Source: a virus
Lineage: Duplodnaviria > Caudoviricetes
IMG/VR virus record: IMGVR_UViG_3300020190_000004
DNA: 64,000 nt
Reading direction: 5' to 3' (one strand)
A program made the position numbers and the translations under genes. The notes beneath the pieces were generated by a model. That model had not been told where the DNA came from. It worked only from the letters and a program-made list of their open reading frames with translations, and made no database searches. Shown piece after piece: positions 34,438 through 60,696 of this stretch (positions within the stretch are counted from its first letter, which is position 1; every line of letters begins with the position of its first letter).

Positions 34438-34782
34438 TTAATCTAATTCAGGTAAAAAACCAAGGCTATTCATGCAATCTTGATCAAAGTATGCGCGTTG
34501 ATTTTTGGGATATTCATGAGTAAAAACTACTTTCTCGTCTTCAATAATTTCCAAGATGTAATTACCTTCACCAGTAGTTCCTACTTTAATCACCCACTCA
34601 TTCCCGTTTCTTCTTTCGTCTGCATAGTAAACTTGAACAAAATCAAAACGATTATCATCGTCTTCATCGGTAAGCTCTTCATTAAACTCGAAAGTTACAC
34701 CACCTAATTGTAGTGATTTTTGAATCTTAAAGTCCAAGTGCCCTTCATTCAAAAAGTTCTCAAATGTTTTAATGTGTTTCAT
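34438..34782 (-). CDS. Hypothetical protein with CTS-like leader (MKHIKTFENFLNE)
   Basis: Leader shared with about 11 other ORFs, followed by an acidic body. Confidence 0.7.
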   Translation of the reverse strand: MKHIKTFENFLNEGHLDFKIQKSLQLGGVTFEFNEELTDEDDDNRFDFVQVYYADERRNGNEWVIKVGTTGEGNYILEIIEDEKVVFTHEYPKNQRAYFDQDCMNSLGFLPELD

Positions 34783-34867
34783 ATTCAGCTTTCAGTTTTT
34801 TGAGAATAGCTTCATTTTTAAGAATTCTTTTTAAGTTCTTTGCCATAGTGCGCCGGTTGCGAGGCAT
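34769..34867 (-). CDS. Possible small basic protein (32 aa; may extend to ATG 34904 via a frameshift in an A-run)
   Basis: MPRNRRTMAKNLKRILKNEAILKKLKAEYETH fills an otherwise empty 127-nt gap and overlaps the next start codon. Confidence 0.3.
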   Translation of the reverse strand: MPRNRRTMAKNLKRILKNEAILKKLKAEYETH

Positions 34868-34909
34868 TCCCTGTTTTTCTTTTTTTGCTCTTGCCACTAC
34901 TCATAAGGG

Positions 34910-36334
34910 TTATTTTTTCTTGGATTCTTTATTCTTTTCTCTATTCTTTTCGTCTTGTGCAGCATCTTGAAATGTATTACCACCCGAATTCCCTGTTTCG
35001 ATTGGTTGACCTTCAACAATCATAGTTTCTTTGGAAATTTTTGCAAGTTTTCCAATTTCGCCGTTTCGAATAACACCGCGGTTAACTTGACAGTTAATGA
35101 TGTTTTTCTTGTTTTCTATAAAACAGTCATTAAGCTTATTATCAATATGAAGCTCGCATTCAGAAATTTTACTAAAATCAACGGTATTTCCTTTTACAAA
35201 ATTACCGTCTTGTATCCTTGAGTTCTTAATTTTACAATCATAAAACCATGCTCTATGAATAACACCTTCAAGTTCGCAGTTAATAAATTCCATGTCAGTT
35301 AACTTGCAGTTACGCAACTTGGTGTCCTTTAATTGAAAACGTCCAATTTCTTTGTCATAATTAAAGGCGCCTTTCTTCATCTTTCCTGTAATTATAAGAT
35401 CAAATAGTTTTTCTCGAATGTTAACCCACATAGATTCCAGTACTTGTGGGTCTGCGTTCATATCAACCCCAACTTCTATTCCAGGAAACGCTTTTTGGAA
35501 AACTTCGTATTTAACAAAAGATTTATACACCTTTTCGTCAATGGCCGTCATTTTTTTAAAGTCCGCCTTTTCTTTGTCAGTAAATCCTTCAAAGTTTAAC
35601 GTATCATATAAATGAAGAATAAAGTAATCGACCAAGTCAAGAATTTTCTTTGTCGTCTTTTCATAATCTTTACCACCAAGGTAACGATATTCCAGATAAC
35701 CCTTTTCCGCCTTCAAGAAGTTAACTCCATAGTACTTTTCGTCAGCTGGAAGAGTTAGGGTGGCGCGACTAAATTCTTCTAATGTAGGAGAATAAAAAAG
35801 TACTCTGTTAGGTCTTAGAGACTTAATACTTCTAGCATAAACACTCCCTTCTCTTTTAGGAAAGATGTCATATATCTTTTTCTCATCAAAAGATAAGATA
35901 AACTTAGGTATGTTGATGTTAGGAATAGTAAAACGGGTAGGGACCGCATTTTCATCAATACTAATGTTTACGTGTATAGAACACCTTTCGTTAGTATAGC
36001 CATTACTGCTGATCCATTCAAAGACTTTAATTAAGACGTTGCGAGCATCTTTGTATTTCATCGGTCCAGTGACTAACTCACACATACTCTTACCACCTGA
36101 ATAATCAGGTTCTAGTTTAAATATGTCAGCAGTAGGAGCTACTGGAGAGTGATAAAGAGGCTTAGGTTCTGTTATAGAACTTAATGCAAGAGGCACTACT
36201 ACCCTTCTTTTTACAAATTTTGCGATGTCTTTAGCGGTTTCAAACACATCCATCGAGCTGTAAAACTCAAACTCGAATCCGCAACGGGCGCTGTCAAGAA
36301 CCTCAGTCTTAGTGTAATTCTTTTTAACCTTCAT
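34910..36334 (-). CDS. Putative amidoligase (COOH-NH2 ligase type 2) with C-terminal beta-helix-like repeats
   Basis: GFEFEF, LEPDYS, ELVTGP, CSIHVN, KYYGVN and YLEYRYLGG motifs. C-terminal 5-residue repeats (LRNCKLTDMEFINCEL, FYDCKIKNSRI). Start moved to MKVKK. Confidence 0.75.
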   Translation of the reverse strand: MKVKKNYTKTEVLDSARCGFEFEFYSSMDVFETAKDIAKFVKRRVVVPLALSSITEPKPLYHSPVAPTADIFKLEPDYSGGKSMCELVTGPMKYKDARNVLIKVFEWISSNGYTNERCSIHVNISIDENAVPTRFTIPNINIPKFILSFDEKKIYDIFPKREGSVYARSIKSLRPNRVLFYSPTLEEFSRATLTLPADEKYYGVNFLKAEKGYLEYRYLGGKDYEKTTKKILDLVDYFILHLYDTLNFEGFTDKEKADFKKMTAIDEKVYKSFVKYEVFQKAFPGIEVGVDMNADPQVLESMWVNIREKLFDLIITGKMKKGAFNYDKEIGRFQLKDTKLRNCKLTDMEFINCELEGVIHRAWFYDCKIKNSRIQDGNFVKGNTVDFSKISECELHIDNKLNDCFIENKKNIINCQVNRGVIRNGEIGKLAKISKETMIVEGQPIETGNSGGNTFQDAAQDEKNREKNKESKKK

Positions 36335-37520
36335 TTGGCAATGATAAGAAAATTTTGTCGTTGTGAACTCTATCAATCGAGACCATTACTGTGTCTCCAA
36401 CCGTAAAGTTCTTTTTCTTTGTTTTGATTTCTTTTTGAGAAATCATTCCGCAGATATCTTTTTGTAACTTAACCAATGTACCAAACGGCTGAATTGAAAT
36501 AACTTCACCACCCCGAATAGTTCCAAGATTTTTTTCTTTAAACTCTTCAAGTTCTAATCTTTTAGCCGTGGGATCTTCATCTGTAAGAATAATTTTCTTG
36601 TCAGGTGTGATCTCTTTGATCCAAAAAGTTAATTCATTTCCAGCCGTGATCTCACGGTCAGTAAACTTCTTCTTCATCTCTGGAGTCATTTTGCTTGTGT
36701 GCAATAGACCCGTGAATATCTCATCAAACTCAACGAATACACCGTACTTTGCAACTCCAGTAACGCTTCCGGTATACATTTTGTCGGTCTCTAACTCACT
36801 AATTTTGCTAGGCAATATCATACTCACATATTTCTTATACGAGAATACAAATGTATTACTTTCGCGTAAATAATCTTCTACAACGACAGGAATCTCTCTT
36901 CCTATCATACTGTCAAAATCTCTTACGATATTTGTAGCAGCGAGTGACCCTGGCAAAAATCCTTTGATACCCGCAACAAATATGATAAAACCGCCTCCAT
37001 TCTTTTCAAGAATCTTACCAATGTAAGCCGATGTTGGTTTAGCAATTTGCTTGACAAATTCACTTTTAATCTTTTCTTCCATCCCTCTTGAAATTGAAAC
37101 TTTAACGTAAGGTTCAACTTGCTCAACGGTGGCTTGTATTTCCTGGTTTAAGAAGTAGTTTTGCCCTTCTTCGGTACTCAAATACTCTGAAAAACCTTCA
37201 GAATCCATGTTAATTGTGTTTAAGTAGCCTTTTTCTCTTTTAAGATCTACTATCCCATCAATCAGCCCGCCTAGTATTACATGCACCTCATTCTTATTAG
37301 CTGCTCTAACAGCAATGATTCTCCTTGTCTCACCTTCTCTAAGTTCTTTACTTAAGATTTCTTGTCCAAGAATCATTTTCTCATAAAGATCTAGTGCGTA
37401 TGGTTCTAAGCAGTAATTCTTAGCACCATACTTTGCTAAGATTTCAGGATTAGGTTTTCTGCGTTTACCAGATTCGAGTCTGTCCCAATCAATTTCTTGT
37501 TTGTTTTTTTGTGTATTCAT
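36324..37520 (-). CDS. rpsA: Ribosomal protein S1-like, four S1 domains
   Basis: D2-like GGGFIIFVAGIKGFLPGSLA..VRD, D3-like YTGSVTGVAKYGVFVEF..GLLHTSKM, D4-like GEVISIQPFGTLVKL..GDTVMV, and a degenerate D1. Confidence 0.85.
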   Translation of the reverse strand: MNTQKNKQEIDWDRLESGKRRKPNPEILAKYGAKNYCLEPYALDLYEKMILGQEILSKELREGETRRIIAVRAANKNEVHVILGGLIDGIVDLKREKGYLNTINMDSEGFSEYLSTEEGQNYFLNQEIQATVEQVEPYVKVSISRGMEEKIKSEFVKQIAKPTSAYIGKILEKNGGGFIIFVAGIKGFLPGSLAATNIVRDFDSMIGREIPVVVEDYLRESNTFVFSYKKYVSMILPSKISELETDKMYTGSVTGVAKYGVFVEFDEIFTGLLHTSKMTPEMKKKFTDREITAGNELTFWIKEITPDKKIILTDEDPTAKRLELEEFKEKNLGTIRGGEVISIQPFGTLVKLQKDICGMISQKEIKTKKKNFTVGDTVMVSIDRVHNDKIFLSLPNEG

Positions 37521-37534: not shown

Positions 37535-37543
37535 GTATATATC
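37535..37543 (-). promoter_or_regulatory. Putative late promoter GATATATAC upstream of the S1 gene
   Basis: Exact motif copy in a 34-nt intergenic gap. Confidence 0.6.
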
Positions 37544-37554: not shown

Positions 37555-40500
37555 TTACGCAAAGTATGGTGCCACATAGCTATTTCCTAACAAAGCGTTC
37601 CTTTGTGCTGTGGCGACAAGCTGGTCAAGCCAGATGATGAATGGAAAGTTTTTTGTCGAAAGCCCTTCCCATGCAGGTAAGACTTCTTTTGGTTTCGATG
37701 GATGAATTTTTGTAAGCGCAATTCGAGTTGCTGGAAAAGCACACCCAAGAAGTATTACAGGAAAAGGTATGTTTTCGCTTGTAAACGAAGCAGCACCTTT
37801 TATGATAGGATCTACATAATCTTTTATTAACTTGGGGTTAAGTTCAAAAAATGGCCCTTCTGGTTTAGGAGGATCAGGTGTAACGAATTGAGATATGATT
37901 GATAAAAATGGAGATTTAAGATTAGAAGCAGCGTCTATAAGTGTACCTAAAACATCCAGCGCTGGAAATGCTATCGTCTCTAGCAAAGAAAACAAAAATG
38001 CTTTTATGTCCGGTCCTGATATTTGTTCAAGACTCACGCTAAACAATAGCTTTATGATATTCAAAATAACGGCAATCTTTGATGCAACAGCAGAAGTACC
38101 TAAGTTTTTGCATATTTGATTTATGTAACAGTTCGCAAACTCGTTAAAAGAAGATAAGAAATCTTTTAACGCCTTTTTTATGATAAAAAGAATTTTTGTC
38201 CCAGGGATTTCTATTTGTATAGGAAGACCAACTTTAGGCAATCTTACGGTAAATGATGCGATGAAGTTTTTTAAAGCTATCTTAATCTCTTTAAGAAGAG
38301 AAACACTTATATCGATAGGGATAACAAGAGGGGGTATTAAGTCCAAAAACAAGTTAATTCCAAGCTGAAATAATTCTTCAGCAGAAGGCAGCTGAACAGC
38401 AAAGTCAATAATTTTACTAAGTGCTTTTAGTATCAAGTCATCATTAAGACCCAGAATAATGTTGGGTATATTCTTAATTGCTTCCAAAGCAAGAGATATT
38501 CCAGGGTTAAGAGGGGGGATTGAAACGTTAGTATAACACGGCTCGGGCAAAGATACCAAGATATCTGCAGATGAAACAAAACCCAATTTCTCAGGGGTTA
38601 TATCTTTAATTGCATCTTCTATCTGCTTCTTTAAAAGATCTTTAACTAAATCTAATCTCTTCTTAGCCGCTTCTTCAGGACTTCCTAAATCTACTTCAGC
38701 TTCAAGTGCGTCAATCTTTGTGTCGAACTCAGAAAAGATTTCTATCGATGCAGCATACGATGTATTGGCTCTAACCAGTTCCTTTAATTTAGCAGTAACA
38801 TCAAAAGGGTTGTTTATACTTAATCCTATTTCTTTAAGAAGCTTCTTTGCTTTATCCGGAGCTGTCTTAAGAATACTCAACAAAGAATTAATAGTGTCAA
38901 GCATAGCAATCGCACTGGGAAGCTCCATCATCATGCCCTTTGAGTCACGCGGTATTTTTATTCCTGGTACATCAAGTCCATCCAAACTTGCAATTAAAAG
39001 CTCTATAATAGTTTTTAGTGACAACTTAATTGCTTCTACATTATCGCAGTTAGTAAACTTTAAAGCATTCTTAATTAAGTCTTTCATCCGCAAAGCAGTG
39101 GGGGAAAATCCTCCAAAGACAGGTGGGTCAGGTATAACTAGTTCATCTACAGATTTCTTAATCTTACCTTTTATGCTATCAATGACAGTTTTCGATGAAT
39201 CTGGTTTGTTTACATCAAGTCTTGTGGATCCTGTAAATAGGTTACCCGGAAATTGTGTAAGATTAATTTTTAATGTAGTATCAAGACCTGGTAATAACTC
39301 AAGAAGACTTTTTTCGTCAAACTCGGTAATTCCCAAAGAAGGATCCGGAATCTTACTAGGTCCTGTGAGAGTAACAGCAAAAATAGTTTGTTGCTTTTCA
39401 TCAATGAACATTACATAGACATTAGGAATGATCCCCCCTGCTGCGCCAATCCAAAACACAAAAGTACCAACTGATGTATGCAAAGTTAAGAGATGAACCC
39501 ACAAGAATGGCAGGGGAATGCTTATGACAGGGTCGGGTATTCCAAGTGCAAGTGAAGGGATAGGGGCCGGAACGGGTATCTGTAAAGCTACTGGGTAATA
39601 TCTAAATAATCTTTTATTTAAGAACATCAAGTCAGGTATCGGCATAAGACTTACTATCTGCATAATCTTGGTATATTCACGCCAATAACAATTCTTTTTG
39701 TAATCGGGGCAGCCATTGGATCCTTTAAGACCCAGAGGATCACTTCCTAAAAGATCTTTGCATTTCTTTTCAGTACCAGGTGAACTATCACCGCCTCCTG
39801 CCTTTTCTGCACATGCAGTAATAGCTTTTTTCTGCTCTTCTATACAAGTATTGCATTCTTCTATCGTCTTAACGAAAAAGTTTAGCTCTTTTTGTAATTT
39901 ATTAAGAAATCTGTTTGAAATGTCTAATTCATTTATAAACTTGTCAGGATTAAAAGATTCAAAATTTGATACGCTAATACTAGAAAAATCGGTAGAACTT
40001 ATCATATCATAAAAAGATAGCTTTGCTTCTAACCTTGCATAAAACCTAATTTTTTTTATGTAAGGCTTGGCATCAGAGCTAGTAAGTATTTGATTCGCTA
40101 AAGAGTTTATTTTACCTCTCGTAAGTTCTTCTAAATTTTCAATAAATGGAATAGCAATCGCTAGATCTACGTTGCAATTCTTTACAGAAGTTGGTACTTC
40201 TTGAACTATGGTAGAACCGTCGCCTGACTTGATTTCTACTGTAGACTTTGCACCTAAAGCATTTCCCTGATCATCATATTGTGGTTTAGGTCCTGTGTAT
40301 CCTTGTTCTTTCCATGTAAACAGGTCATCTATACGGTTAGGAGAATAGTATTTTCTCCAAAGTCCGTTTTCTAAAAAACCAGTCCTTGGTAGTCCCTCTC
40401 CTGGTACAAATGTATAGTTATCAACTTTAAGATAACCGTCAAAAATTGTGTCTTGCGCGCCATTTAAAGATTGCGCTAGCAAAAAGTCTAGCCTGCCTTT

Positions 40501-42141
40501 AATTTCGGGATTTGTAACAATCAGTTCAAGTGACTTGCCGTTATCTTTAAATCCTGTAAGATTAGATAAAGCATTTGTAGTTCTTTTTACTTTTTTTCGA
40601 GCCTTTTCTACATAATCTTCAAAATCATATGTATTAAATTCTGCAATGTCAAATTCATCTTTTATTTCAGCTTCAAGGCCAGCATTAAAGTTGTCTACGG
40701 AACTCTGAAAATCTTCTTGTAAAGAAATTAATGATTGATCCAAATCATTTTTTTGTGCATTCAAATTTTCTGTTTCTACGGCGGATAAATTAGTTGATAA
40801 CAGCTTTGCGGTAACATCCGCTAGCTGAGATTCTATAGACGACTTCTCTTTTGCTATCGCAATAAACGGCGGATTCAATAAGTTATTTGTGGTAGCTCTT
40901 TCTGATACATACTTGTGATTCAAGTCGTGTAAAAGAGCCACTTCTTTAAACGCATAGTATCTGTTTATAGCATTAACTTTTTTCTTACCACACTCATTCA
41001 TAATGTCTTGCGCTTTCTTTATACAAGCCATCATGTTTTTTATTTTATTTAGTTCATCTTCAGGATTAGGTAAACTTAAACCGTTGATTAAATCCTCTAC
41101 TTCTTTTATGTTTGCAAGAGGTATCTCTGGTTCAATGGGAACAACACAAGGTATCGCTTCTTCTACTTCATCAGTAGAAAATTTCTTGGTTTTTGAAGGT
41201 CTCTTTCCACACAAGTCCATTTTACCAACTTCTTTAAGATCTTTAACCAACGAATTGCCAACTTTTTTGTTTAAGTTTTTCTTAATCGCTTTAGCCGCTT
41301 TTAGATTGTCTTTATAGATTTTTTCTGCAATATCACCAAGGTTTTCTTCTATGTATAGATTAATTCCCTCCCTTTCCAATATCTCAAAAAACATATCTGC
41401 GTTAGTAGCTGCTAAAAGTTCTGTTAGAATAGCAATATCTTTAACCTCCTTTTTTGCTATTTCTTTTAATTCCTCTAACGACTTTCCAACAGAAGGCGTT
41501 AGTAGAGATTTTATCTTATCATTTTTAAGAGCATCAAGAGCTTTCTTAGGAGTACTGAAGTTTGTGTCGATAGCTGGCCCCCATGAAACTTCTTTTGTAG
41601 ATATTGCAAAACGCAAGTTTATTGAAACCGGTCCCATATTGATAGACTTGTTCAGCGTGATAGCCGGAACAGTCAGAGAAATCTTGACATCTTTCATTTT
41701 ACTAGTGTCAAGACCGGGAAGTACTTTACTTACATCAATCGTAGGATTGTCAGATAGATTATTTACTGAATTAGCAGCGGCTTGTATTTTTGAAGTATCT
41801 AAGGAAGCAAAGTCAATCGAAAAAACTTCTTTGGTTAAACTTACAATATCACTAATAGCACCACTCAAAGCTGAATTGATTGCTTCTAATAACTTTAAAA
41901 TGCGATCTTTGTCATTAGGGTTTTCTACTGCGGGCAGTGCTTTCTTTGCGAATGCCTTAATACAGTTATCTGCGTCATCTTGCGCACTGCCGTTAGCACT
42001 GCCGTTAGCACTGCCGTTAGCACTGCCGTTAGCATTCTTACCTGCGTTGGGGTCAAGAAGAGAACTTATTTCATTTAATACACTTTTGGCATCATCAGAT
42101 AGTTCATCGCAGCAGTCGCACCCTTTTTTTAATTCATCCAT
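37555..42141 (-). CDS. Large helical, Cys-clustered protein with hydrophobic C-terminal half, 1528 aa (tape-measure or spike-associated candidate)
   Basis: TAATG-coupled to the gp5-like gene. Lys/Glu-rich helical N-half, Cys clusters, and Pro/Ile/Leu-rich amphipathic C-half. Confidence 0.5.
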   Translation of the reverse strand: MDELKKGCDCCDELSDDAKSVLNEISSLLDPNAGKNANGSANGSANGSANGSAQDDADNCIKAFAKKALPAVENPNDKDRILKLLEAINSALSGAISDIVSLTKEVFSIDFASLDTSKIQAAANSVNNLSDNPTIDVSKVLPGLDTSKMKDVKISLTVPAITLNKSINMGPVSINLRFAISTKEVSWGPAIDTNFSTPKKALDALKNDKIKSLLTPSVGKSLEELKEIAKKEVKDIAILTELLAATNADMFFEILEREGINLYIEENLGDIAEKIYKDNLKAAKAIKKNLNKKVGNSLVKDLKEVGKMDLCGKRPSKTKKFSTDEVEEAIPCVVPIEPEIPLANIKEVEDLINGLSLPNPEDELNKIKNMMACIKKAQDIMNECGKKKVNAINRYYAFKEVALLHDLNHKYVSERATTNNLLNPPFIAIAKEKSSIESQLADVTAKLLSTNLSAVETENLNAQKNDLDQSLISLQEDFQSSVDNFNAGLEAEIKDEFDIAEFNTYDFEDYVEKARKKVKRTTNALSNLTGFKDNGKSLELIVTNPEIKGRLDFLLAQSLNGAQDTIFDGYLKVDNYTFVPGEGLPRTGFLENGLWRKYYSPNRIDDLFTWKEQGYTGPKPQYDDQGNALGAKSTVEIKSGDGSTIVQEVPTSVKNCNVDLAIAIPFIENLEELTRGKINSLANQILTSSDAKPYIKKIRFYARLEAKLSFYDMISSTDFSSISVSNFESFNPDKFINELDISNRFLNKLQKELNFFVKTIEECNTCIEEQKKAITACAEKAGGGDSSPGTEKKCKDLLGSDPLGLKGSNGCPDYKKNCYWREYTKIMQIVSLMPIPDLMFLNKRLFRYYPVALQIPVPAPIPSLALGIPDPVISIPLPFLWVHLLTLHTSVGTFVFWIGAAGGIIPNVYVMFIDEKQQTIFAVTLTGPSKIPDPSLGITEFDEKSLLELLPGLDTTLKINLTQFPGNLFTGSTRLDVNKPDSSKTVIDSIKGKIKKSVDELVIPDPPVFGGFSPTALRMKDLIKNALKFTNCDNVEAIKLSLKTIIELLIASLDGLDVPGIKIPRDSKGMMMELPSAIAMLDTINSLLSILKTAPDKAKKLLKEIGLSINNPFDVTAKLKELVRANTSYAASIEIFSEFDTKIDALEAEVDLGSPEEAAKKRLDLVKDLLKKQIEDAIKDITPEKLGFVSSADILVSLPEPCYTNVSIPPLNPGISLALEAIKNIPNIILGLNDDLILKALSKIIDFAVQLPSAEELFQLGINLFLDLIPPLVIPIDISVSLLKEIKIALKNFIASFTVRLPKVGLPIQIEIPGTKILFIIKKALKDFLSSFNEFANCYINQICKNLGTSAVASKIAVILNIIKLLFSVSLEQISGPDIKAFLFSLLETIAFPALDVLGTLIDAASNLKSPFLSIISQFVTPDPPKPEGPFFELNPKLIKDYVDPIIKGAASFTSENIPFPVILLGCAFPATRIALTKIHPSKPKEVLPAWEGLSTKNFPFIIWLDQLVATAQRNALLGNSYVAPYFA
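41984..42031. repeat. Perfect 12-bp tandem repeat x4 (GCACTGCCGTTA) encoding ANGS x4
   Basis: Read directly from the sequence. Confidence 0.95.
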
Positions 42142-49592: not shown

Positions 49593-49601
49593 GTATATAT
49601 C
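49593..49601 (-). promoter_or_regulatory. Putative late promoter GATATATAC
   Basis: Divergent intergenic region at the head of the baseplate operon. Confidence 0.6.
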
Positions 49602-49627
49602 ACCTTCATATACAATTCTTAACCATG

Positions 49628-49636
49628 AATATATAG
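49628..49636 (+). promoter_or_regulatory. Putative late promoter AATATATAG
   Basis: Opposite-orientation copy upstream of the plus-strand cluster of tagged genes. Confidence 0.5.
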
Positions 49637-49655: not shown

Positions 49656-49877
49656 ATGAATAGAAGAGTATTAAATTTTTCCGACTTTTTGGTAGAAGCT
49701 GATGAATTGGAAAAAGATCTTGTTAAGAAGAATCTTCGTGCTGAAGCTGGCGGTGAACAAGAAGAAGAAAAAGAAGAAGAAATCGACGCAGCAGAAGTTA
49801 GCGATGACGACGATGACGACGATGACGACGTCGCATCCGATGATTCCGTTGCTTCAGACGGTGGAGCAGATATCTAA
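49656..49877 (+). CDS. Highly acidic small protein with CTS-like leader (gp67-like core protein or DNA mimic)
   Basis: MNRRVLNFSDFLVE leader. 29 of 73 residues are D or E. Confidence 0.65.
   Translation: MNRRVLNFSDFLVEADELEKDLVKKNLRAEAGGEQEEEKEEEIDAAEVSDDDDDDDDDVASDDSVASDGGADI
49803..49829. repeat. 9-bp tandem repeat x3 (GATGACGAC) encoding Asp9
   Basis: Read directly from the sequence. Confidence 0.9.
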
Positions 49878-49892: not shown

Positions 49893-50234
49893 ATGAAGCA
49901 CATACACACATTTGAAAACTTCTTAAATGAAGCCCTGGCTTTTGATACATCTAAACTAAAGAATATCAACTTTATCCTTCCTCCTTTTGATAAGCCGTAC
50001 CAAGATGAATTCCAGATCTCCTTTGATAAAGGTGTAGATAAAGATGCAATTGAAAAAGCAATTAAAAGTGAAAAGGGCGCAGCCCGTGTAAAGTACGAGT
50101 GGACTACAGACCCGCACGGCTCGGAAGTTCTACTGCTTAAACCTGGAAAAGATAACTCAGGTCTAACTTTCGTTTTCAGCGCAGTCGATGATTTCTATGG
50201 TTCACACGGTGCAAGCATGGGATGGGCACTATAA
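49893..50234 (+). CDS. Hypothetical protein with CTS-like leader (MKHIHTFENFLNE)
   Basis: Shared leader motif. Confidence 0.7.
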   Translation: MKHIHTFENFLNEALAFDTSKLKNINFILPPFDKPYQDEFQISFDKGVDKDAIEKAIKSEKGAARVKYEWTTDPHGSEVLLLKPGKDNSGLTFVFSAVDDFYGSHGASMGWAL

Positions 50235-50560: not shown

Positions 50561-50585
50561 AGTAGGTACTAAAAAAAGAATTAAT

Positions 50586-50885
50586 ATGAAAAACATTAAA
50601 ACGTTTGAAGACTTTCTTGGTGATTCTACCAAAACCAATGAAGAAGCAGAAGGCAAAATGTATAAAGTATCTCTTGATACAATCATAAAGAGCGCTGAAG
50701 AAATCAAATCCCTTGTTACCGACGACCAAGATCTTGAGGCCTGGGTGCAAGACAAGATAACTATCGCTGAACACAACATGGAAGCTATTCTTGGTTATAT
50801 GAAAGGCGAAGGCGGCAAGAAGAAAATTGAAGTACCAGTTCAAGGAGATATGAAAACTGGCGGAATGTTAAAGGACGAAAACTAA
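50586..50885 (+). CDS. Helical phage protein with CTS-like leader (MKNIKTFEDF)
   Basis: Start moved to 50586. The DLEAWVQDKITIAEH helix motif is one I recall from large-phage hypothetical proteins. Confidence 0.7.
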   Translation: MKNIKTFEDFLGDSTKTNEEAEGKMYKVSLDTIIKSAEEIKSLVTDDQDLEAWVQDKITIAEHNMEAILGYMKGEGGKKKIEVPVQGDMKTGGMLKDEN

Positions 50886-53811: not shown

Positions 53812-53820
53812 GTATATATT
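53812..53820 (-). promoter_or_regulatory. Putative late promoter AATATATAC
   Basis: Intergenic, upstream of the ATG at 53798. Confidence 0.5.
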
Positions 53821-54544: not shown

Positions 54545-54874
54545 TTATATACTAGATTCAAAAACGATAGAATGTTGATAACTAGGTTTATCTGATGCTA
54601 CATTGATTGTAACATTCCCTTTATGTTTAAGGATTATTTTAAGATAATCTACGACTTGCTTAGGTTTTCTAGGAAATCCATTGGCTCCTCTTAATCCAGC
54701 ACCATACAACCAACTTGGAAGATTGTCTGCCGATATGTTAGGATCCTTAATGAATTCTTGAATATCTTTATCGGTGTATGTATGTTGTTTATTACCGTAA
54801 GTGATAACGGTAATTTTCTTTCCTTCATTTAAATTCTCATTTAAGAATTCTTCGAAAAGTTTAATGTATGCCAT
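54545..54874 (-). CDS. Hypothetical protein with CTS-like leader (MAYIKLFEEFLNENLNE)
   Basis: Shared leader, with its own promoter motif and terminator. Confidence 0.7.
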   Translation of the reverse strand: MAYIKLFEEFLNENLNEGKKITVITYGNKQHTYTDKDIQEFIKDPNISADNLPSWLYGAGLRGANGFPRKPKQVVDYLKIILKHKGNVTINVASDKPSYQHSIVFESSI

Positions 54875-54893: not shown

Positions 54894-54902
54894 CTATATA
54901 TC
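54894..54902 (-). promoter_or_regulatory. Putative late promoter GATATATAG
   Basis: Intergenic, upstream of the ATG at 54874. Confidence 0.55.
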
Positions 54903-55830: not shown

Positions 55831-56724
55831 TTAGTAATTTATTTTTTTGTAATCTGCAATGTCTTTTAGTTCGGCTGTAGGTAATACTTCAATTTTCTTT
55901 AGTATTACGTTTCTTACGTTTGCTAAATCATTAATTTCTTTTTCTGAAAGACCTGCAATAGTATAAGTTTCGCCAACAGAAAAACCAAGAGTAGAAAGCT
56001 TTTTTGCACTGTCGAGAGATTCCCAATACTTGCTATCTAATGGCTGATTTGTATTAAATGTTGCAACACAATTATCCCAAAGAGTTTTTGCGTCTATTGG
56101 GGAAGTTTTTTCAATTACGCAGCTTTCGCCACTAGTATAAACAGCAGCAATTGAATACTTTCCTGACATAGCGTCAGGTGGAGTGTTTTCTTTAAGTTTC
56201 TTAAATTGTTCAGGCTTGTCTTTATCCATGGTAGAAGATAAGCCATTTGAAAAAAGAATACTTAATATCTGATTAATTTTAATTGCAGACATACTTAATA
56301 CACCAGAAAAACCAGCCTTTTTAGAAGCTTTTACTGATATCTTTTCATCTCCTTTACTTACGTCAGAAAAAATCGAATCAGCGCCTGCTGCTCCAACAGC
56401 CGTAGGATTAGTTTGTTGCCCGCCTAATACTTTTTCAACTATATGTTCAGCTATTGTTGAAGTTCTAATTCCACCTACTGCTGTATCTTTAGCGTTTGTT
56501 CCAAGATTTGTAACAAACGTATGAAAAAAGTTTGCTTCATTCAAAAGAGGCCCGTCATCAGCAGCAAACTTCTTATCTTTCAAGATATCACTATAAGAAA
56601 TTGTTGCCCCAGCCTTAGCACCGCTTGATCCTATATACTGTGTTAAGAACTGAAAAATGTTTTGTGCATTAACAGATTCATTAACAGATTCATTCAAGAA
56701 AGATTCGTAATCTAGAAGACCCAT
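55831..56724 (-). CDS. CTS-like-leader protein, possible PD-(D/E)XK nuclease fold, 297 aa
   Basis: MGLLDYESFLNESVNESVN leader. The IAEHIVE...FSDVSKGDEKISVKAS segment resembles the E..D..SxK catalytic pattern. Confidence 0.45.
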   Translation of the reverse strand: MGLLDYESFLNESVNESVNAQNIFQFLTQYIGSSGAKAGATISYSDILKDKKFAADDGPLLNEANFFHTFVTNLGTNAKDTAVGGIRTSTIAEHIVEKVLGGQQTNPTAVGAAGADSIFSDVSKGDEKISVKASKKAGFSGVLSMSAIKINQILSILFSNGLSSTMDKDKPEQFKKLKENTPPDAMSGKYSIAAVYTSGESCVIEKTSPIDAKTLWDNCVATFNTNQPLDSKYWESLDSAKKLSTLGFSVGETYTIAGLSEKEINDLANVRNVILKKIEVLPTAELKDIADYKKINY

Positions 56725-57043: not shown

Positions 57044-57052
57044 GTATATATC
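57044..57052 (-). promoter_or_regulatory. Putative late promoter GATATATAC
   Basis: Intergenic, upstream of the ATG at 57011. Confidence 0.55.
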
Positions 57053-57514
57053 TCACTTGTAGTCTGGGGACTTGACTTTCTTGCCTTTATCTGGTCCACC
57101 TTCTCGGGGTATCATGCCTTGCGCGATCAATGAGACTCTTATACCGAATGGTATGTCTTTACCGTCTTCGTATTCCTTTTGATACTTCTTAAGAGTATCT
57201 TCATCATAAGGAGATTCTTTTTCGTCAAGTAAGTCTTCTCGACCAAGCTGCTTGTACACCTCTTTACGAACTTTTTCCATTTTCTCTGCGTATTCAGGAT
57301 CATCATTGCGGTTAAAGACGACCTGCTGTGTAAGACTACCGCTAATCTTTTTAAGATCTTTTTTACGAGTCTTAATTAGCCAAGCAGCAAGATCCTCAAT
57401 GCCTAAATCTCTAAAACGTCCTTCTGCATCAGGTGCATCGCTATCTTTCCATTCAGGGGCGCCTGCAGGTTTCTTTTCATACAGCCACTGTTCAAAAAGT
57501 TTTAAGTGTTTCAT
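57053..57514 (-). CDS. Hypothetical protein with CTS-like leader (MKHLKLFEQWLYE)
   Basis: Shared leader motif. Confidence 0.7.
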   Translation of the reverse strand: MKHLKLFEQWLYEKKPAGAPEWKDSDAPDAEGRFRDLGIEDLAAWLIKTRKKDLKKISGSLTQQVVFNRNDDPEYAEKMEKVRKEVYKQLGREDLLDEKESPYDEDTLKKYQKEYEDGKDIPFGIRVSLIAQGMIPREGGPDKGKKVKSPDYK

Positions 57515-57532: not shown

Positions 57533-58339
57533 TTACAATTCTTTGTTTACGTCGGTGCTGTATGGTTTTGTCAGATCAATCTCACCATTAGCTAACATTC
57601 GTTTTACTTTCTCAACTTCGTCCGGCCCAATTACAGGCATTTCTACTCGTGCTGGGGCCCCTGGCATGATTTGCTTAGGCAACGCGTCAGCGTTTTTCAT
57701 CATAATCTCTTTACCCTTTTCGTAGTCCCCACCTGCTCCTGGCATATTACTCAAGCTTTCTTTAACTTGCTCAGGTGTAATAGGAAACTTTCCTTGAATT
57801 CCGTTCTCTAAAAAGTTATCCAAAAGATTTCCAATGTTTCTTCCGGTAAAATCTTTAATGTCTCCGTCTCCGTAGTTACCACCGCGATTAAACATACCAA
57901 CGGTAATTGTGTTTAATGCAGATACTAAGGATACTCCAGGTAAGTCAATTTGTGTTGCTTCAACTTTTCCGCTTGGATCGCAAAGAAATGTAGCAGCCCA
58001 ACGATGATGACCATCCATAATAAAATTGTCTTTAGAAACGATTGAACCTAAATCACCACCAATTTTTGCAGGTTTTGTGTTTAGCATTGTTCCAATAGCC
58101 ATTCCAATAGCCTTTTCCGCGATAATCTCTGTTTGGGCAGCTTGAAGATTTTTAACAGGAACGCTTACTTTCTTCCCAGCAACTGCATCATCTCTCTTAT
58201 CACCGTCTTTACCACCTCTGCCAATTGAGGCATCAGCAGCTTTCTTGTTAACTTTACTTAAAGGAATAACATCACCTCTTCCATGAATCTCCATCGAATC
58301 TTCTAGGATGTAACTTTCAAATGTTTTAACGTATTTCAT
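57533..58339 (-). CDS. ParB/Sulfiredoxin-like N-domain protein with CTS-like leader (MKYVKTFESYILE)
   Basis: VPVKNLQAAQTEI...IVSKDNFIMDGHHRWAA. Confidence 0.7.
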   Translation of the reverse strand: MKYVKTFESYILEDSMEIHGRGDVIPLSKVNKKAADASIGRGGKDGDKRDDAVAGKKVSVPVKNLQAAQTEIIAEKAIGMAIGTMLNTKPAKIGGDLGSIVSKDNFIMDGHHRWAATFLCDPSGKVEATQIDLPGVSLVSALNTITVGMFNRGGNYGDGDIKDFTGRNIGNLLDNFLENGIQGKFPITPEQVKESLSNMPGAGGDYEKGKEIMMKNADALPKQIMPGAPARVEMPVIGPDEVEKVKRMLANGEIDLTKPYSTDVNKEL

Positions 58340-58388
58340 AATTTTTATTTATTCAGGTATTCCTACTAGGACTTTAGTTTTAAGTGTT

Positions 58389-59213
58389 TCATTTAAGTAA
58401 ACTCCAGTACTCGTTAAAGTGTTTAATTCTATCGTCAAGGCCGTTGGTTCCACCATTCACACGCTTTGTAACAGCGGTGATATCTGCTACTGTTGCACCT
58501 CTATCACAAATAGACCAAAGTTTATTGTTGTTAAAGAAAAAGGCAGCAGAAGCAAGCGGGTATTTTGTTGCTACCAAATCAGGATTAGAAACACAATCTT
58601 CTCCGATGAATTTTGTAAAGGACTCGTAATTGCTTTTACCAGTCAGTTGTATATAACCTCTACCGCGAAACTTATACCCGTCTCGTGATTTTTCATCGCC
58701 ATTTCCCATTCTGTTGGCATAAACTCGTGAAGCTATCTTCTCAGGTTGTTTTGCGTATAAGTCAGCAAGGTTTCCCGGGAAGTACTTGCCAAAAGTTGCT
58801 TGTAAACCTTTAGAAGAATAGTTTAAGTTTTCACTAGTTGCCTTAAAGTTTCCACTTTCATGAGCGCATTGTGACAAGAAGTGCGCAAGACGTAAATTAG
58901 TAGTAATTCCAAATTTAGCAGCAGTTTCAGGAATTTGCGCAAGAACCGCATCAGATATGTGACCTTTGAGTTCATTAATCTTTAGACCAGTTGATTCAGT
59001 AGATGTAAATGGCGGCAATTCCGGTGTACCAAACATTAACTTCCAACTGACATTGCCTGATGTAATTATTCCGTCTGGTGTTAAGCCATTTTTCTTTTGC
59101 CAAGCAATAACCGCTGTTTCAGTTTTTGGTCCAAACGAACCGTCTGCGGTTAAACCAAGTTTTTCTTGTAAGAGTTTAACATCGCCTCCTGTAGATCCTT
59201 TCTTAATTAACAT
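58389..59213 (-). CDS. Endolysin: peptidoglycan-binding domain plus GH19 catalytic domain
   Basis: KKGSTGGDVKLLQEKL..ADGSFGPKTETAV.AWQ (PG_binding_1), HFLSQCAHESG, FRGRGYIQLTGKSNY and TKRVNGGTNGL. Confidence 0.92.
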   Translation of the reverse strand: MLIKKGSTGGDVKLLQEKLGLTADGSFGPKTETAVIAWQKKNGLTPDGIITSGNVSWKLMFGTPELPPFTSTESTGLKINELKGHISDAVLAQIPETAAKFGITTNLRLAHFLSQCAHESGNFKATSENLNYSSKGLQATFGKYFPGNLADLYAKQPEKIASRVYANRMGNGDEKSRDGYKFRGRGYIQLTGKSNYESFTKFIGEDCVSNPDLVATKYPLASAAFFFNNNKLWSICDRGATVADITAVTKRVNGGTNGLDDRIKHFNEYWSLLK

Positions 59214-59690: not shown

Positions 59691-60305
59691 TTATTTATCA
59701 TTCAAAAAAGATAGTAAAAGTGATTCTAAGAATTCTTTGAGATCTTGAGTTTTTTCTAAGTGAGGGCTAAGTAAAAGAACTTTGCCATTACCGCATCGAT
59801 TCTTTATAATAGCTGGAGTTGTAGGCATGTCATGTAAACCGTCTGTATCAGGTATGTCATCCATGTAACGAGCAATAATGTCCACATTTTTCCACTGTTC
59901 AAACACCGGACCGTTAAAATAATCAACGTCACGATACTCCGATCCTACTAGTATCTTAACAGTATGATGACCTCTTTTCCACCTGCGATGTATACTTACA
60001 GGTGAAATTCCAAGAGACCAAGAATATGTAGTTGATGCAAGATATGCACCCGCGCAAACGCCTATGTAACGGCCTCCATTTTTAACCCATTCAGTGATCT
60101 TACTTAATCTTCTTTTTCCCAGAGTCCGGGCAAAGATGCTAGCAGAACCCCCAGGGAAGAGTATTGCATCAGGGTTTCCTTGAAGAATGTCTTTTGCTGA
60201 AACATAATGAACTTGTGCGTGTGGCAAGTAACTTTCAAAAAAATCTTGCCATATCAACGGAGTAGATACTCTTACACCGTGATCACTGTAAACGTTTATC
60301 TGCAT
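59691..60305 (-). CDS. BPL-N-like class I glutamine amidotransferase-fold protein
   Basis: LFPGG, YIGVCAGAY (nucleophile Cys) and SPHLE (His-x-Glu). Confidence 0.85.
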   Translation of the reverse strand: MQINVYSDHGVRVSTPLIWQDFFESYLPHAQVHYVSAKDILQGNPDAILFPGGSASIFARTLGKRRLSKITEWVKNGGRYIGVCAGAYLASTTYSWSLGISPVSIHRRWKRGHHTVKILVGSEYRDVDYFNGPVFEQWKNVDIIARYMDDIPDTDGLHDMPTTPAIIKNRCGNGKVLLLSPHLEKTQDLKEFLESLLLSFLNDK

Positions 60306-60316
60306 TAAAGTTTTTT

Positions 60317-60508
60317 TTAATACCTTTGGACAGTAGAACGATTGATTTGATCACTGCCGTCTTTCTCTTGGTCGTATTCTTTGCCAGGTTCATTTGTGTC
60401 TATGGAAAAGACTTCTTTTCCATGTGCGTACTTTTTGCCTTTTTTCATAACATGCTTGTCATGCAAGTCACCTATGAATTCTTCAAATGTTTTTATAGGT
60501 TTTTTCAT
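60317..60508 (-). CDS. Small charged protein with CTS-like leader (MKKPIKTFEEFIGD)
   Basis: Leader nearly identical to the neighbour's, with an ATGA overlap. Confidence 0.65.
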   Translation of the reverse strand: MKKPIKTFEEFIGDLHDKHVMKKGKKYAHGKEVFSIDTNEPGKEYDQEKDGSDQINRSTVQRY

Positions 60509-60696
60509 ATTCCTCCAAACGGATAAGCAGCAGTAGCTGTCTCTTCATCGTCACCGTAGTAAGTAGGATTTTGCGTATCAGGGTCTAAGAACAGCTCGTC
60601 ACCGTCTTTCTCTTCTTCGCGATCAGCGAGTTTTCTGAGTTTTCTTGTCTCCAAGTCGCCGATAAAATCTTCAAACGTAGGTACTCGTTTTTTCAT
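60505..60696 (-). CDS. Small acidic protein with CTS-like leader (MKKRVPTFEDFIGD)
   Basis: Shared leader, directly downstream of GATATATAC. Confidence 0.65.
   Translation of the reverse strand: MKKRVPTFEDFIGDLETRKLRKLADREEEKDGDELFLDPDTQNPTYYGDDEETATAAYPFGGI

What the first reader, a model, noticed from the sequence alone, without database searches (positions are those of the whole stretch)
34438..60696. About 12 unrelated genes share a capsid-targeting-like leader: a candidate virion-injected cargo arsenal
Seen: leaders MKHIKTFENFLNE (34782), MNRRVLNFSDFLVE (49656), MKHIHTFENFLNE (49893), MKHLKTFENFLNE (50249), MKNIKTFEDFLGD (50586), MHVLPFDKFSKE (50885), MAYIKLFEEFLNE (54874), MGLLDYESFLNE (56724), MKHLKLFEQWLYE (57514), MKYVKTFESYILE (58339), MKKPIKTFEEFIGD (60508) and MKKRVPTFEDFIGD (60696). 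The bodies show no similarity to each other by eye, and many follow the late-like promoter. Established: T4 internal proteins IPII/IPIII carry MKTYQEFIAE, which targets them into the prohead and is removed by gp21 after Glu; IPI* is injected and inhibits GmrSD. Inference: this phage uses a portable tag to package a diverse enzyme and anti-defence payload (CapA-like, ParB-like, nuclease-like, acidic proteins) for delivery with the DNA.
Basis: partly seen in the sequence, partly recalled or inferred. Interest (0 to 1): 0.88.

Follow-up and report, generated by a model that had tools for sequence, protein, structure and literature searches.

The report
T4-like capsid-address tag on phage genes
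Eleven (perhaps twelve) unrelated genes of an uncultivated freshwater jumbo phage start with the same 13-residue peptide, which matches phage T4's "pack me into the head, then cut me off" signal, so they are probably proteins loaded into the capsid and delivered with the DNA, though no experiment shows this.

Summary
All 12 leaders sit at the stated coordinates, against 0.15 expected in shuffles. Eleven are strong; the CapA-like one at 50885 is weak. Synonymous codons vary, so the conservation is at peptide level. It stops abruptly after the final Glu/Asp, and the bodies are unrelated.

The consensus is M-K-H-I-K-T-F-E-x-F-L-N-E|A/S. Its four best-kept positions (aromatic -6, aromatic -3, Leu/Ile -2, Glu 0) match the four T4 IPIII residues shown by mutagenesis to drive capsid targeting (4, 7) and gp21 cleavage (8, 10). 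A matrix built only from the window's leaders ranks T4 IPII and IPIII in the top 4 of 1,580 T4 N-termini.

The window is a fragment without a head module. Its relatives (jumbo/huge phages, about 200-700 kb) carry gp20 portal, gp23 capsid protein and an S77 (gp21-type) protease-scaffold fusion, plus arrays of the same leader. In two relatives a leader-bearing acidic gene lies between portal and protease. A late-promoter-like motif is shared with structural genes.

Cargo includes a ParB/Srx-like protein and a PD-(D/E)xK nuclease-like protein.

Packaging, cleavage, injection and any anti-defence role are untested. This scan has already followed up the same kind of leader on other genomes. Verdict: a new, large-scale variant of the T4 capsid-targeting system.

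The parts
34438..34782 (-). Leader gene, 114 aa, MKHIKTFENFLNE|G, acidic body (pI 4.3). It lies next to the gp13-like neck gene.
   Evidence: 25.5 bits; no Pfam/PHROG match
49656..49877 (+). Leader gene, 73 aa, MNRRVLNFSDFLVE|A (14-residue variant). The body is a run of Asp/Glu, like T4 gp67 and like the small gene between portal and protease in relatives.
   Evidence: promoter-like AATATATAG lies 20 nt upstream
49893..50234 (+). Leader gene, 113 aa, MKHIHTFENFLNE|A
   Evidence: 27.2 bits; no tblastn match in 50,697 phage records
50249..50560 (+). Leader gene, 103 aa, MKHLKTFENFLNE|A (the longest ORF starts at 50222)
50586..50885 (+). Leader gene, 99 aa, MKNIKTFEDFLGD|S (Asp-ending variant)
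   Evidence: in T4, Asp at this position blocks cutting but not targeting (PMC9026906)
50885..51949 (+). Doubtful member, 354 aa, MHVLPFDKFSKE, PGA_cap (CapA-like) domain at residues 17-260
   Evidence: Pfam 2e-44; outside the 25 best matrix scores; G002 homologue lacks the final Glu
54545..54874 (-). Leader gene, 109 aa, MAYIKLFEEFLNE|NLNE|G (a second LNE follows at once), basic body (pI 9.4)
   Evidence: GATATATAG lies about 20 nt upstream
55831..56724 (-). Leader gene, 297 aa, MGLLDYESFLNE|SVNE|S (short variant). The body is PD-(D/E)xK nuclease-like, with invariant E93, D121 and S130-V-K132.
   Evidence: pLDDT 82; residues 1-5 and 10-20 below 50; top rows are restriction endonucleases and Hjc, Z 4.1-4.6, weak
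57053..57514 (-). Leader gene, 153 aa, MKHLKLFEQWLYE|K. The conserved PxWKDSDAP motif is shared with a G002 leader protein.
57533..58339 (-). Leader gene, 268 aa, MKYVKTFESYILE|D. The body is ParB/Srx-like, with invariant IMDGHHRWAA.
   Evidence: (pLDDT 91; residues 1-5 and 8-13 below 50)
60317..60508 (-). Leader gene, 63 aa, MKKPIKTFEEFIGD|L (14-residue, Asp-ending variant)
60505..60696 (-). Leader gene, 63 aa, MKKRVPTFEDFIGD|L (14-residue, Asp-ending variant). The same variant type dominates in relative G030.
   Evidence: GATATATAC lies 4 nt upstream
49593..49636 (.). Back-to-back pair of the late-promoter-like motif RATATATAS. It drives the 760-aa structural gene leftwards and the leader-gene run 49656-51949 rightwards.
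   Evidence: 11 copies against 3.2 expected; 0 of 100 shuffles reach 11; ten lie 10-60 nt upstream of a called gene start, the eleventh at 53820 before an ATG inside a called ORF
33699..34430 (-). T4 gp13-like neck/adaptor gene; shows that the virion module is T4-related
   Evidence: PHROG 211; PF26809 Phage_T4_gp13 precomputed on identical contigs
31631..33325 (-). Baseplate wedge (Baseplate_J-like) gene, used to find relatives

Best explanation
The 13-14-residue leader is the local version of the T4 capsid targeting sequence, a clip-off address label. Inferred steps follow. (1) The genes are transcribed late, together with the structural genes. (2) The amphipathic N-terminal peptide (K-T-F-E-x-F) binds the scaffolding core of the assembling prohead, so the attached protein is enclosed. 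(3) The S77 (gp21-type) prohead protease, which in this clade is fused to the scaffold, cuts after [L/I]-x-Glu. A second [LIV]-N-E a few residues on is often cut as well. This frees the mature protein inside the head. (4) The protein leaves with the DNA at infection. The three leaders that end in Asp may be targeted but left uncut, as in T4 mutants. Because any body can be placed behind the tag, the phage holds a large and fast-changing set of cargo genes: 11-12 in this window and dozens per genome in relatives. The set includes a ParB/Srx-like protein, a PD-(D/E)xK nuclease-like protein and several small acidic or basic proteins. Shown here: the motif, its peptide-level conservation, its match to T4's functional residues, and its co-occurrence with T4-type head genes in relatives. 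Inferred: binding, cutting, packaging, ejection and cargo functions.
For: Motif statistics: 12 against 0.15 expected; N-terminal restriction; peptide-level conservation; unrelated bodies.

T4 sequences read with the tools: IPII/IPIII MKTYQEFIAE|A and IPI MKTFKEF...ITE|A. Mutagenesis maps targeting to residues 4 and 7 and processing to 8 and 10, and Asp at 10 blocks cutting only (PMC9026906). These four residues align with the window's positions -6 (12/12 aromatic), -3 (12/12 aromatic), -2 (11/12 Leu/Ile) and 0 (9 Glu, 3 Asp).

A matrix from 11 window leaders ranks IPIII and IPII 3rd and 4th of 1,580 T4 candidate N-termini.

In 196 leader proteins from IMG/VR loci, conservation ends at Glu. The next residue is Ala/Ser/Gly in 56%. 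A second [LIV]NE lies within 12 residues in 27/196, against 0-4 in later windows of the same size.

Relatives with the leader carry Peptidase_S77 in a 630-690-aa ORF: G002, G003, G004 and LR756500.1, 9 of 26 further fragments against about 7 expected if each genome has one, and G030, which is 97% complete.

Portal_T4, S77 and Gp23 are confirmed by Pfam. A leader-bearing acidic 113-aa gene lies between portal and protease, the position of T4 gp67/68.

The RATATATAS motif is shared by baseplate and other structural genes and by leader clusters.

In the ParB/Srx-like family (172+ homologues) the N-terminal peptides differ by lineage, but the Glu just before the conserved body is at least 90% conserved. 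Distant members lie 4-6 kb from a terminase-Portal_T4-S77-Gp23 cluster.

AlphaFold2 places the leader as a low-confidence appendage outside well-folded bodies.

Neighbouring enzymes lack the leader: endolysin, NUDIX, GATase-like and SLT. So do the replication and structural genes of relatives.
Against: There is no direct evidence of packaging, cleavage or ejection.

The window's own record has no S77 gene; it is a 30%-complete fragment. The link to a protease therefore rests on relatives and on an unchecked first-stage note.

Two of the four best T4 hits of the matrix are not known head proteins: UvsW.1, a helicase accessory protein, and gp61.1. The motif alone is therefore not fully specific.

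Dozens of cargo species per genome is far beyond any documented CTS system.

Leader-bearing proteins in related contigs include families that could work in the cytoplasm (ferritin-like, 2OG-Fe(II) oxygenase, cytidylyltransferase, ATP-grasp). I did not check these members one by one. One apparent case, a clamp loader, was a mis-called start.

The N-terminal L-[LI]-N-E of the capsid proteins does not align with the T4 gp23 cleavage site.
Confidence: 0.7

Rival explanations
1. The leader is a functional N-terminal helix of cytoplasmic proteins, for example an oligomerisation, partner-binding or stability element. It would be kept in a fast-diverging paralogue family or spread by gene fusion, with no link to the capsid.
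For: T4 UvsW.1 and gp61.1, not known as head proteins, carry very similar N-termini. Some tagged proteins in related contigs belong to ordinary enzyme families.
Against: The bodies show no detectable kinship. Two of them have different, well-predicted folds. The ParB/Srx-like family wears different leaders in different lineages. The leader's conserved positions are exactly T4's targeting and cleavage residues. The sharp end at Glu followed by a small residue, and the repeated [LIV]NE, fit a protease site better than a helix.
Confidence: 0.12
2. The leader addresses proteins to another part of the virion or of the assembly pathway, such as the tail lumen, the baseplate or a transient assembly factory. 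Alternatively it targets them to the head without being cut.
For: The tagged genes in this window lie beside tail, baseplate and neck genes, not head genes. Three leaders end in Asp, which is not cut in T4.
Against: In relatives, leader genes sit between portal and protease. The similarity is to the head-core signal of T4. Ten of the twelve leaders carry a Glu or Asp preceded by Leu/Ile two residues before; two of the three Asp-ending ones and the CapA-like one are followed by a non-small residue.
Confidence: 0.08
3. The leader is a recognition sequence for a modifying enzyme that serves many substrates. An earlier follow-up of this scan concluded this for a radical-SAM-linked tag in phage RB43.
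For: The precedent in the scan (e1-127136) shows that shared N-terminal tags on unrelated phage proteins need not be capsid signals.
Against: There is no Radical_SAM domain in the window's record, in G002 (84% complete, 20 or more leader genes) or in G031 (16 leader genes). S77 is present wherever enough genome is available. The leader has no Cys, Ser or Thr pattern typical of such substrates.
Confidence: 0.04
4. The shared sequence is a nucleic-acid element at the start of the mRNA (a translation enhancer or recombination site), and the peptide is a by-product.
For: The codons are A/T-rich, and Lys at position 2 is common in well-translated genes. A decayed leader mini-ORF suggests gene turnover at leader boundaries.
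Against: Synonymous sites vary freely while the amino acids are kept. The upstream regions are unrelated apart from the promoter-like motif. Lineage variants keep the residue pattern but not the bases.
Confidence: 0.03

Closest known systems
Phage T4 capsid targeting sequence (CTS) of internal proteins IPI, IPII, IPIII (and Alt), removed by prohead protease gp21 (Mullaney & Black 1996; reviews PMC3012670, PMC9026906, PMC5694885)
   Same: It is a short N-terminal propeptide on otherwise unrelated proteins. It has K-T-aromatic-x-x-Phe-[Ile/Leu]-x-Glu followed by a small residue. The aromatic pair is spaced i, i+3, and the aliphatic residue and Glu sit at the T4 processing positions. The phage clade has gp20, gp21 (S77) and gp23 head genes. 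The mature parts are diverse and fast-evolving.
   Different: The leader is 3-4 residues longer at its N-terminus (M-K-H-I-). Glu sits at the position after the first aromatic residue rather than before the second. There are 11-12 tagged genes in 64 kb and dozens per genome, against 3-5 in T4. The cargo includes larger enzyme-like proteins. The protease is fused to the scaffold in a ~650-aa protein. Nothing has been shown experimentally.
Propeptides of ejection/inner-head proteins of giant phages phiKZ and SPN3US, cut by their prohead protease at S/A/G-x-Glu (PMC5694885, PMC10052503)
   Same: These are jumbo phages with many head-internal proteins that are processed after Glu and ejected. Extra cleavage sites occur inside the propeptides.
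   Different: Those propeptides are mostly over 100 residues and are not one shared short tag. The phages belong to a different lineage (chimalliviruses and kin). Here the tag is short and uniform and the head genes are T4-type.
Phage P1 Dar anti-restriction proteins packaged in the head (PMC9024508, PMC12810830)
   Same: Head-packaged proteins delivered with the DNA to counter host defences.
   Different: Incorporation depends on an ordered protein-protein hierarchy (Hdf, DarA), not on a common cleavable N-terminal tag.
Earlier follow-ups of this scan on other uncultivated T4-like and giant phages (e1-3862018 MIKLKDLLKE leader; e1-1066390 14-residue tag in a Bacteroidota megaphage; e1-5319784; e1-2903699)
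   Same: The same architecture: one lineage-specific leader ending in hydrophobic-x-Glu on tens of unrelated proteins, in phages with an S77-type protease. The MIKLK..LLKE type appears here on distant homologues of the ParB/Srx-like cargo.
   Different: The leader sequence and lineage differ. Those are AI reports, not publications, and are equally untested at the bench.

Membership tests
T4-type capsid targeting sequence (cleavable prohead-core address tag) | A short N-terminal peptide shared by proteins whose mature parts are unrelated | tested here: met
   Twelve ORF starts against 0.15 expected; bodies unrelated by BLASTP; two bodies fold differently
T4-type capsid targeting sequence (cleavable prohead-core address tag) | Residues equivalent to IPIII Tyr4 and Phe7 (targeting) and Ile8 and Glu10 (processing) | tested here: met
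   Aromatic 12/12 at -6, aromatic 12/12 at -3, Leu/Ile 11/12 at -2, Glu 9 and Asp 3 at 0. T4 sequences; functional mapping from PMC9026906. The window matrix ranks IPIII and IPII 3rd and 4th of 1,580.
T4-type capsid targeting sequence (cleavable prohead-core address tag) | The same genome encodes a gp21-type (Peptidase_S77) prohead protease | tested here: inconclusive
   None in the 83.6-kb record that holds the window, but that record is about 30% of a genome and has no head module. An unchecked first-stage note (e1-5367294) reports one 29 kb beyond the window.
T4-type capsid targeting sequence (cleavable prohead-core address tag) | Relatives that carry the leader have T4-type head genes (gp20 portal, S77 protease, gp23 capsid protein) | tested here: met
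   S77 in G002, G003, G004, LR756500.1 and G030, and in 9 of 26 fragments. Pfam Portal_T4 1.7e-71, Peptidase_S77 3.5e-11, Gp23 3.1e-44.
T4-type capsid targeting sequence (cleavable prohead-core address tag) | Expression together with the head and virion genes (late) | tested here: inconclusive
   The promoter-like motif RATATATAS is shared with structural genes (11 against 3.2 expected). There are no transcript data, and the sigma factor was not identified.
T4-type capsid targeting sequence (cleavable prohead-core address tag) | Physical incorporation into proheads and removal of the tag by the protease | not testable with these tools
   Needs virion proteomics or a reporter assay. A complex prediction gave no answer (see Tried and rejected).
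T4-type capsid targeting sequence (cleavable prohead-core address tag) | Ejection of the mature protein into the host with the DNA | not testable with these tools
   No cultured phage or host
Leader peptides recognised by a radical-SAM/SPASM maturase (RiPP-like; the scan's RB43 case) | Co-occurrence of the tag with a radical-SAM enzyme | tested here: not met
   No PF04055 match in G000, G002 (84% complete) or G031. Matches occur only in the two largest genomes, at coordinates (W02 386-447 kb; G030 302 kb) away from most of the leader genes found there.
Sec/Tat/lipoprotein signal peptides | A hydrophobic core of 7 or more residues after a basic N-region, and a signal-peptidase site | tested here: not met
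   The leaders are 13-14 residues, charged and amphipathic, with no hydrophobic run
ParB/Srx superfamily (cargo 57533-58339) | DGHHR-type motif and ParB N-domain fold | tested here: inconclusive
   IMDGHHRWAA is invariant in 40 sequences. The Foldseek best hits are ParB-N and sulfiredoxin, but E is only 3.6e-3 to 0.1 and TM 0.2-0.45. There is no Pfam hit.
PD-(D/E)xK nucleases (cargo 55831-56724) | Core alpha-beta fold with acidic residues and Lys in a D...(E/S/Q)-x-K arrangement | tested here: inconclusive
   E93, D121 and S130-V-K132 are invariant in 9 sequences. The top structural rows are almost all restriction endonucleases, Hjc and splicing endonucleases, but Z is only 3-4.6. The Atlas leads are SmaI, HinP1I and ThaI at 0.89-0.90.

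The most novel reading that the evidence does not exclude
In this clade of environmental jumbo and huge phages the T4-type tag has become a genome-wide 'postcode'. It would place several dozen unrelated proteins, perhaps a tenth of all genes and including nuclease-like and ParB-like enzymes, inside the capsid for co-injection. That would make a virion-delivered effector arsenal that evolves by swapping bodies behind a constant leader. The leader would then let one read the injected proteome of uncultivated phages directly from sequence.
Probability: 0.45. Interest if true: 0.85.

Novelty: new variant of a known kind. Interest (0 to 1): 0.72.

Why it matters
T4's internal proteins are the textbook case of phage proteins injected to disarm host defences (IPI* against GmrSD), but only a handful are known. 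If the tag works here as in T4, sequence alone would identify the first-minute weapons of many uncultivated giant phages, most of them with no known function. It would also show that head cargo can be an order of magnitude more diverse than in any studied phage. Finally, it would give a natural, portable tag for loading foreign proteins into large capsids. A nuclease-like cargo packed beside the genome would imply that the phage DNA is protected; an unchecked note on this genome reports a cytosine-hypermodification cluster.

Tried and rejected
1. Complex prediction of the G004 leader protein with its protease-scaffold fusion gave 'no answer' (score 0.00, both chains poorly folded). It is no evidence either way.

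2. I suspected that the capsid proteins' N-terminal M-x-N-L-[LI]-N-E-A corresponds to the T4 gp23 cleavage site. The alignment instead places it opposite the start of the T4 propeptide, so I dropped the idea.

3. A clamp-loader subunit seemed to carry the leader. It was an upstream mis-called start; the true start, MKSINQLFTEKYRP, has no leader.

4. The cultured relatives PTm1, PAU, MaF61 and pT24 have no leader at the window's fixed spacing. With variable spacing PAU shows MKTYISFIKE. Lak-A1, cyanophage S-SSM7 and HTVC008M show nothing clear, and that pattern is noisy because it is not frame-restricted.

5. tblastn of two cargos against 50,697 phage records found nothing, so no cultured phage with virion proteomics could be used.

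The long contigs that carry the window's own proteins were not shown, so I could not read the window's own head module.

7. Full-text searches for the CTS together with huge, jumbo or mega phages or cyanophages found only T4, SPN3US and P1 work. I found no published description of such leader expansions. This library is not the whole literature.

8. Sigma-70-type promoter and terminator scans were at background level.

Full report
WHAT IS THERE.
The window is part of an 83.6-kb IMG/VR virus record that CheckV rates about 30% complete. Bases 1-373 lie off that record. Identical proteins occur on freshwater metagenome contigs, some of 0.2-1 Mb, which the tools did not show.

The left and middle of the window hold a myovirus tail, baseplate and neck module: a Baseplate_J-like wedge, a gp5/VgrG-like hub, a gp13-like neck protein and giant ORFs of 1,528-2,529 aa. 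The nearest GenBank relatives by baseplate protein are the huge phages LR756500.1 (462 kb, 38% identity), the Lak phages and LR756501-4. Phages PAU, PTm1, pT24 and MaF61 are farther away.

All twelve N-termini are as quoted. A relaxed expression finds 12 ORF starts in the window. Shuffled windows give a mean of 0.145 (maximum 3). The reversed sequence gives none, and none of 289 internal Met positions matches. Eleven of the 16 occurrences of the core motif in 20,500 aa of called genes lie within the first 18 residues. The rest of the record has none.

Codons at synonymous positions differ freely between copies, so the peptide is what is conserved. The bodies show no similarity to each other. 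Most have no Pfam or PHROG family.

A matrix built from eleven leaders separates them (18-27 bits) from every other candidate start in the window (12 bits or less). This is partly circular, because the eleven are the training set. The CapA-like gene at 50885 falls below the 25 best scores. Its G002 homologue starts MLLKYDSFIKR, with no final Glu. I count 11 solid members and one doubtful one.

COMPARISON WITH T4, MADE WITH THE TOOLS.
T4's own sequences are IPII and IPIII MKTYQEFIAE|A, and IPI MKTFKEFTSTTTPVSTITE|A.

A review of the Mullaney and Black mutagenesis states three things. Targeting depends mainly on residues 4 and 7 of the IPIII tag. Processing depends on residues 8 and 10. Asp at position 10 blocks cutting but not targeting (PMC9026906).

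Aligned on the final Glu, the window's consensus is M-K-H-I-K-T-F-E-x-F-L-N-E. It places an aromatic residue opposite Tyr4 (12/12) and opposite Phe7 (12/12). It places Leu/Ile opposite Ile8 (11/12) and Glu opposite Glu10 (9 Glu, 3 Asp). K-T precedes the first aromatic residue, as in T4.

The matrix built only from window leaders was run over all 1,580 candidate N-termini of the T4 genome. Its four best hits are UvsW.1, gp61.1 (MKTFKEFIKE), IPIII and IPII. Two experimentally proven tags are thus recovered. The two other hits show that the motif alone is not fully specific.

THE LEADER IS WIDESPREAD AND LINKED TO T4-TYPE HEADS.
Arrays reach 13 tagged genes in 15 kb.

Every contig tested is a fragment rated 6-53% complete. 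That implies genomes of roughly 200-700 kb.

Peptidase_S77, the family of T4 gp21, was found in a 630-690-aa open frame in these records:
- G002 (84% complete), G003, G004 and LR756500.1;
- 9 of 26 further fragments, where about 7 would be expected if each genome had one copy;
- G030, a 425-kb relative rated 97% complete.

G030 carries a one-residue-longer variant, M-x-x-R-I-P-T-[FI]-[DE]-E-[FY]-I-x-E. This is the same type as the window's MKKRVPTFEDFIGD. A closer relative, G031 (65% baseplate identity), has 16 leader genes in 126 kb. G002 has about 20 ORFs above 13 bits in the 219 kb I read. LR745206.1 (635 kb) has yet another variant, M-I-K-K-Y-x-x-F-I-[KN]-E.

In G004 the head module reads as follows: Portal_T4 (1.7e-71), a 113-aa acidic protein that starts MKIIKTFEDFLTE, an S77 protease fused to a scaffold-like part of about 450 residues, and Gp23 (3.1e-44). 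G003 shows the same gene order by N-terminal similarity. The small gene occupies the place of T4's prohead-core genes 67 and 68. Like gp67 and like the window's 49656 product, it ends in an Asp/Glu run. The scaffold-like part has 14-residue repeats, each with a V/L-A-E site. That fits a scaffold that is chopped up after assembly, as T4 gp22 is.

SIGNS OF A CLEAVAGE SITE.
These figures come from 196 non-redundant leader proteins taken from the fetched loci. Some positions were fixed by the search pattern. Conservation stops at the Glu. The next residue is Ala, Ser or Gly in 56% of cases. A second [LIV]-N-E lies within the next 12 residues in 27 of 196, against 0-4 in four later windows of the same size. 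The window's own examples are ...FLNE-NLNE-G and ...FLNE-SVNE-S. AlphaFold2 models of two cargos are confident for the bodies (mean pLDDT 91 and 82). They leave the leader as a low-confidence appendage.

PORTABILITY.
The 268-aa cargo at 57533-58339 belongs to a family with more than 170 metagenomic cluster representatives and an invariant IMDGHHRWAA motif. Close homologues carry the window's leader type. More distant ones carry MIKLK..LLKE, MKLKKIL.E or MKQTNKKRRLFE.

In all of them the peptide ends in hydrophobic-x-Glu directly before the conserved body. That Glu is at least 90% conserved. Two distant members lie 4-6 kb upstream of a terminase-Portal_T4-S77-Gp23 cluster. The tag therefore goes with the phage lineage and the body with the protein family. 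This is the expected pattern for an address label read by a lineage's own head machinery.

TIMING.
The motif RATATATAS occurs 11 times, against 3.2 expected; none of 100 shuffles reaches 11. Every copy is on the coding strand. Ten lie 10-60 nt upstream of a called gene start. The eleventh, at 53820, precedes an ATG inside a called ORF.

It precedes structural and giant-ORF genes with starts at 4899, 19115, 33325, 37520, 45051 and 49574. It also precedes leader-gene starts at 49656, 54874 and 60696. This fits co-expression with virion genes, but I have no transcript data. I could not confirm a late sigma factor by Pfam.

WHAT THE CARGO IS.
- 50885 is CapA/PGA_cap-like but is a doubtful member.
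- 57533-58339 is ParB/Srx-like by motif and by weak fold matches.
- 55831-56724 has invariant E93, D121 and S130-V-K132. Its best structural matches are almost all PD-(D/E)xK nucleases, though weak (Z 3-4.6). The language-model leads are SmaI, HinP1I and ThaI.
- 49656 is an acidic gp67-like peptide.
- The rest are small acidic or basic proteins with no relatives of known function.

Neighbouring genes without the leader are ordinary enzymes: endolysin, NUDIX, GATase-like and SLT.

RIVALS.
- A nucleic-acid element is excluded by the codon variation.
- A signal peptide is excluded because there is no hydrophobic core.
- A RiPP-type recognition leader was the conclusion of an earlier scan follow-up for a different tag in phage RB43. 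It is not supported here. There is no radical-SAM domain in the window's record, in G002 or in G031, while S77 is present wherever enough genome is available.
- A cytoplasmic role for the N-terminal helix cannot be excluded. T4 UvsW.1 and gp61.1 look alike. Pfam tallies among 80 tagged proteins include ferritin-like, 2OG-Fe(II) oxygenase, cytidylyltransferase and ATP-grasp families, which I did not verify one by one. One apparent replication enzyme was an artefact of a mis-called start.

KNOWN OR NEW.
The T4 CTS and the diversity of T-even internal proteins behind it are established (PMC3012670, PMC9026906, PMC5694885). In the searchable library I found no description of such tags in huge or jumbo environmental phages, nor of dozens of tagged genes per genome. 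The scan itself has followed up the same architecture on several other genomes, and first-stage notes report about 30 more tagged genes elsewhere in this genome. I did not check those.

I class this as a new, large-scale variant of a known kind. Confidence that the tag is a head-targeting, protease-removed propeptide is 0.7. It rests on sequence logic and comparative context, not on any direct measurement.

Noticed in passing
window 4924-4932, 19142-19150, 33374-33382, 37535-37543, 45056-45064, 49593-49601, 49628-49636, 53812-53820, 54894-54902, 57044-57052, 60700-60708: The motif RATATATAS (mostly GATATATAC) occurs 11 times against 3.2 expected. It is always on the coding strand. Ten copies lie 10-60 nt before a called start codon; the one at 53820 precedes an ATG inside a called ORF. 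It is a candidate late promoter, analogous to T4's TATAAATA.
   Followed up: partly
window about 58366-58392 (-): A nine-codon mini-ORF, MKHLKLKS-stop, starts in the ATGA overlap with the endolysin stop codon, just upstream of the leader gene at 58339. It looks like the stump of a lost leader gene, which hints at gene turnover at leader boundaries.
   Followed up: no
T4 NC_000866: 19130 (-) gp61.1; 114210 (+) UvsW.1: Two T4 proteins not known as head proteins have CTS-like N-termini (MKTFKEFIKE|D and MLLEFKQFLYE|A). With the window's matrix they score as high as IPII and IPIII. gp61.1 shares IPI's first seven residues.
   Followed up: partly
L134:9717-11699, L135:9646-11544, L136:8222-10066 (-), L137:8726-10624 (-): In this clade the S77 prohead protease is fused to a long acidic, coiled-coil-like part. 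In the G004 protein (L134), the only one read in full, it has 14-residue repeats (YSEHVAEKADQGIA...), each with a V/L-A-E site. This is a protease-scaffold fusion rather than separate gp21 and gp22.
   Followed up: partly
L134:11821, L135:11629, L136:8200 (-), L137:8678 (-): The gp23-type capsid proteins of relatives all begin M-x-N-L-[LI]-N-E-[AS], which resembles the end of the leader. The alignment places this opposite the start of T4's propeptide, not opposite its cleavage site.
   Followed up: partly
G030 (L184, L185); LR745206.1; PAU JQ362498.1 48631: Lineage-specific variants of the tag: M-x-x-R-I-P-T-[FI]-[DE]-E-[FY]-I-x-E in a 425-kb relative; M-I-K-K-Y-x-x-F-I-[KN]-E on many ORFs of a 635-kb huge phage; and MKTYISFIKE in the cultured phage PAU.
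   Followed up: partly
L163 and L164 (ENA contigs): Distant homologues of the ParB/Srx-like cargo lie 4-6 kb upstream of terminase-Portal_T4-S77-Gp23 in T4-like contigs. Several neighbours there start MKLK..L.E, a different recurring leader.
   Followed up: partly
window 1-4899, 4934-12523, 12523-16095, 24818-31357, 37555-42141 (all -): The tail module holds five giant ORFs (over 1,633, 2,529, 1,190, 2,179 and 1,528 aa). I did not analyse any of them.
   Followed up: no
window 34910-36334 (-) and 36324-37520 (-): An amidoligase-like protein with pentapeptide repeats and a protein with two S1 RNA-binding domains lie inside the structural gene run, the latter behind a GATATATAC motif. This is unusual company for baseplate genes.
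   Followed up: no
L138 (ENA scaffold of 326 kb): A close relative carries another array of about ten leader genes, interspersed with GIY-YIG-like genes, a stand-alone DnaA C-terminal domain gene and a histidine kinase/response regulator pair. One gene called without a leader (8390) has ...TYDQFLNE just upstream in frame, so gene callers miss some tagged starts.
   Followed up: partly
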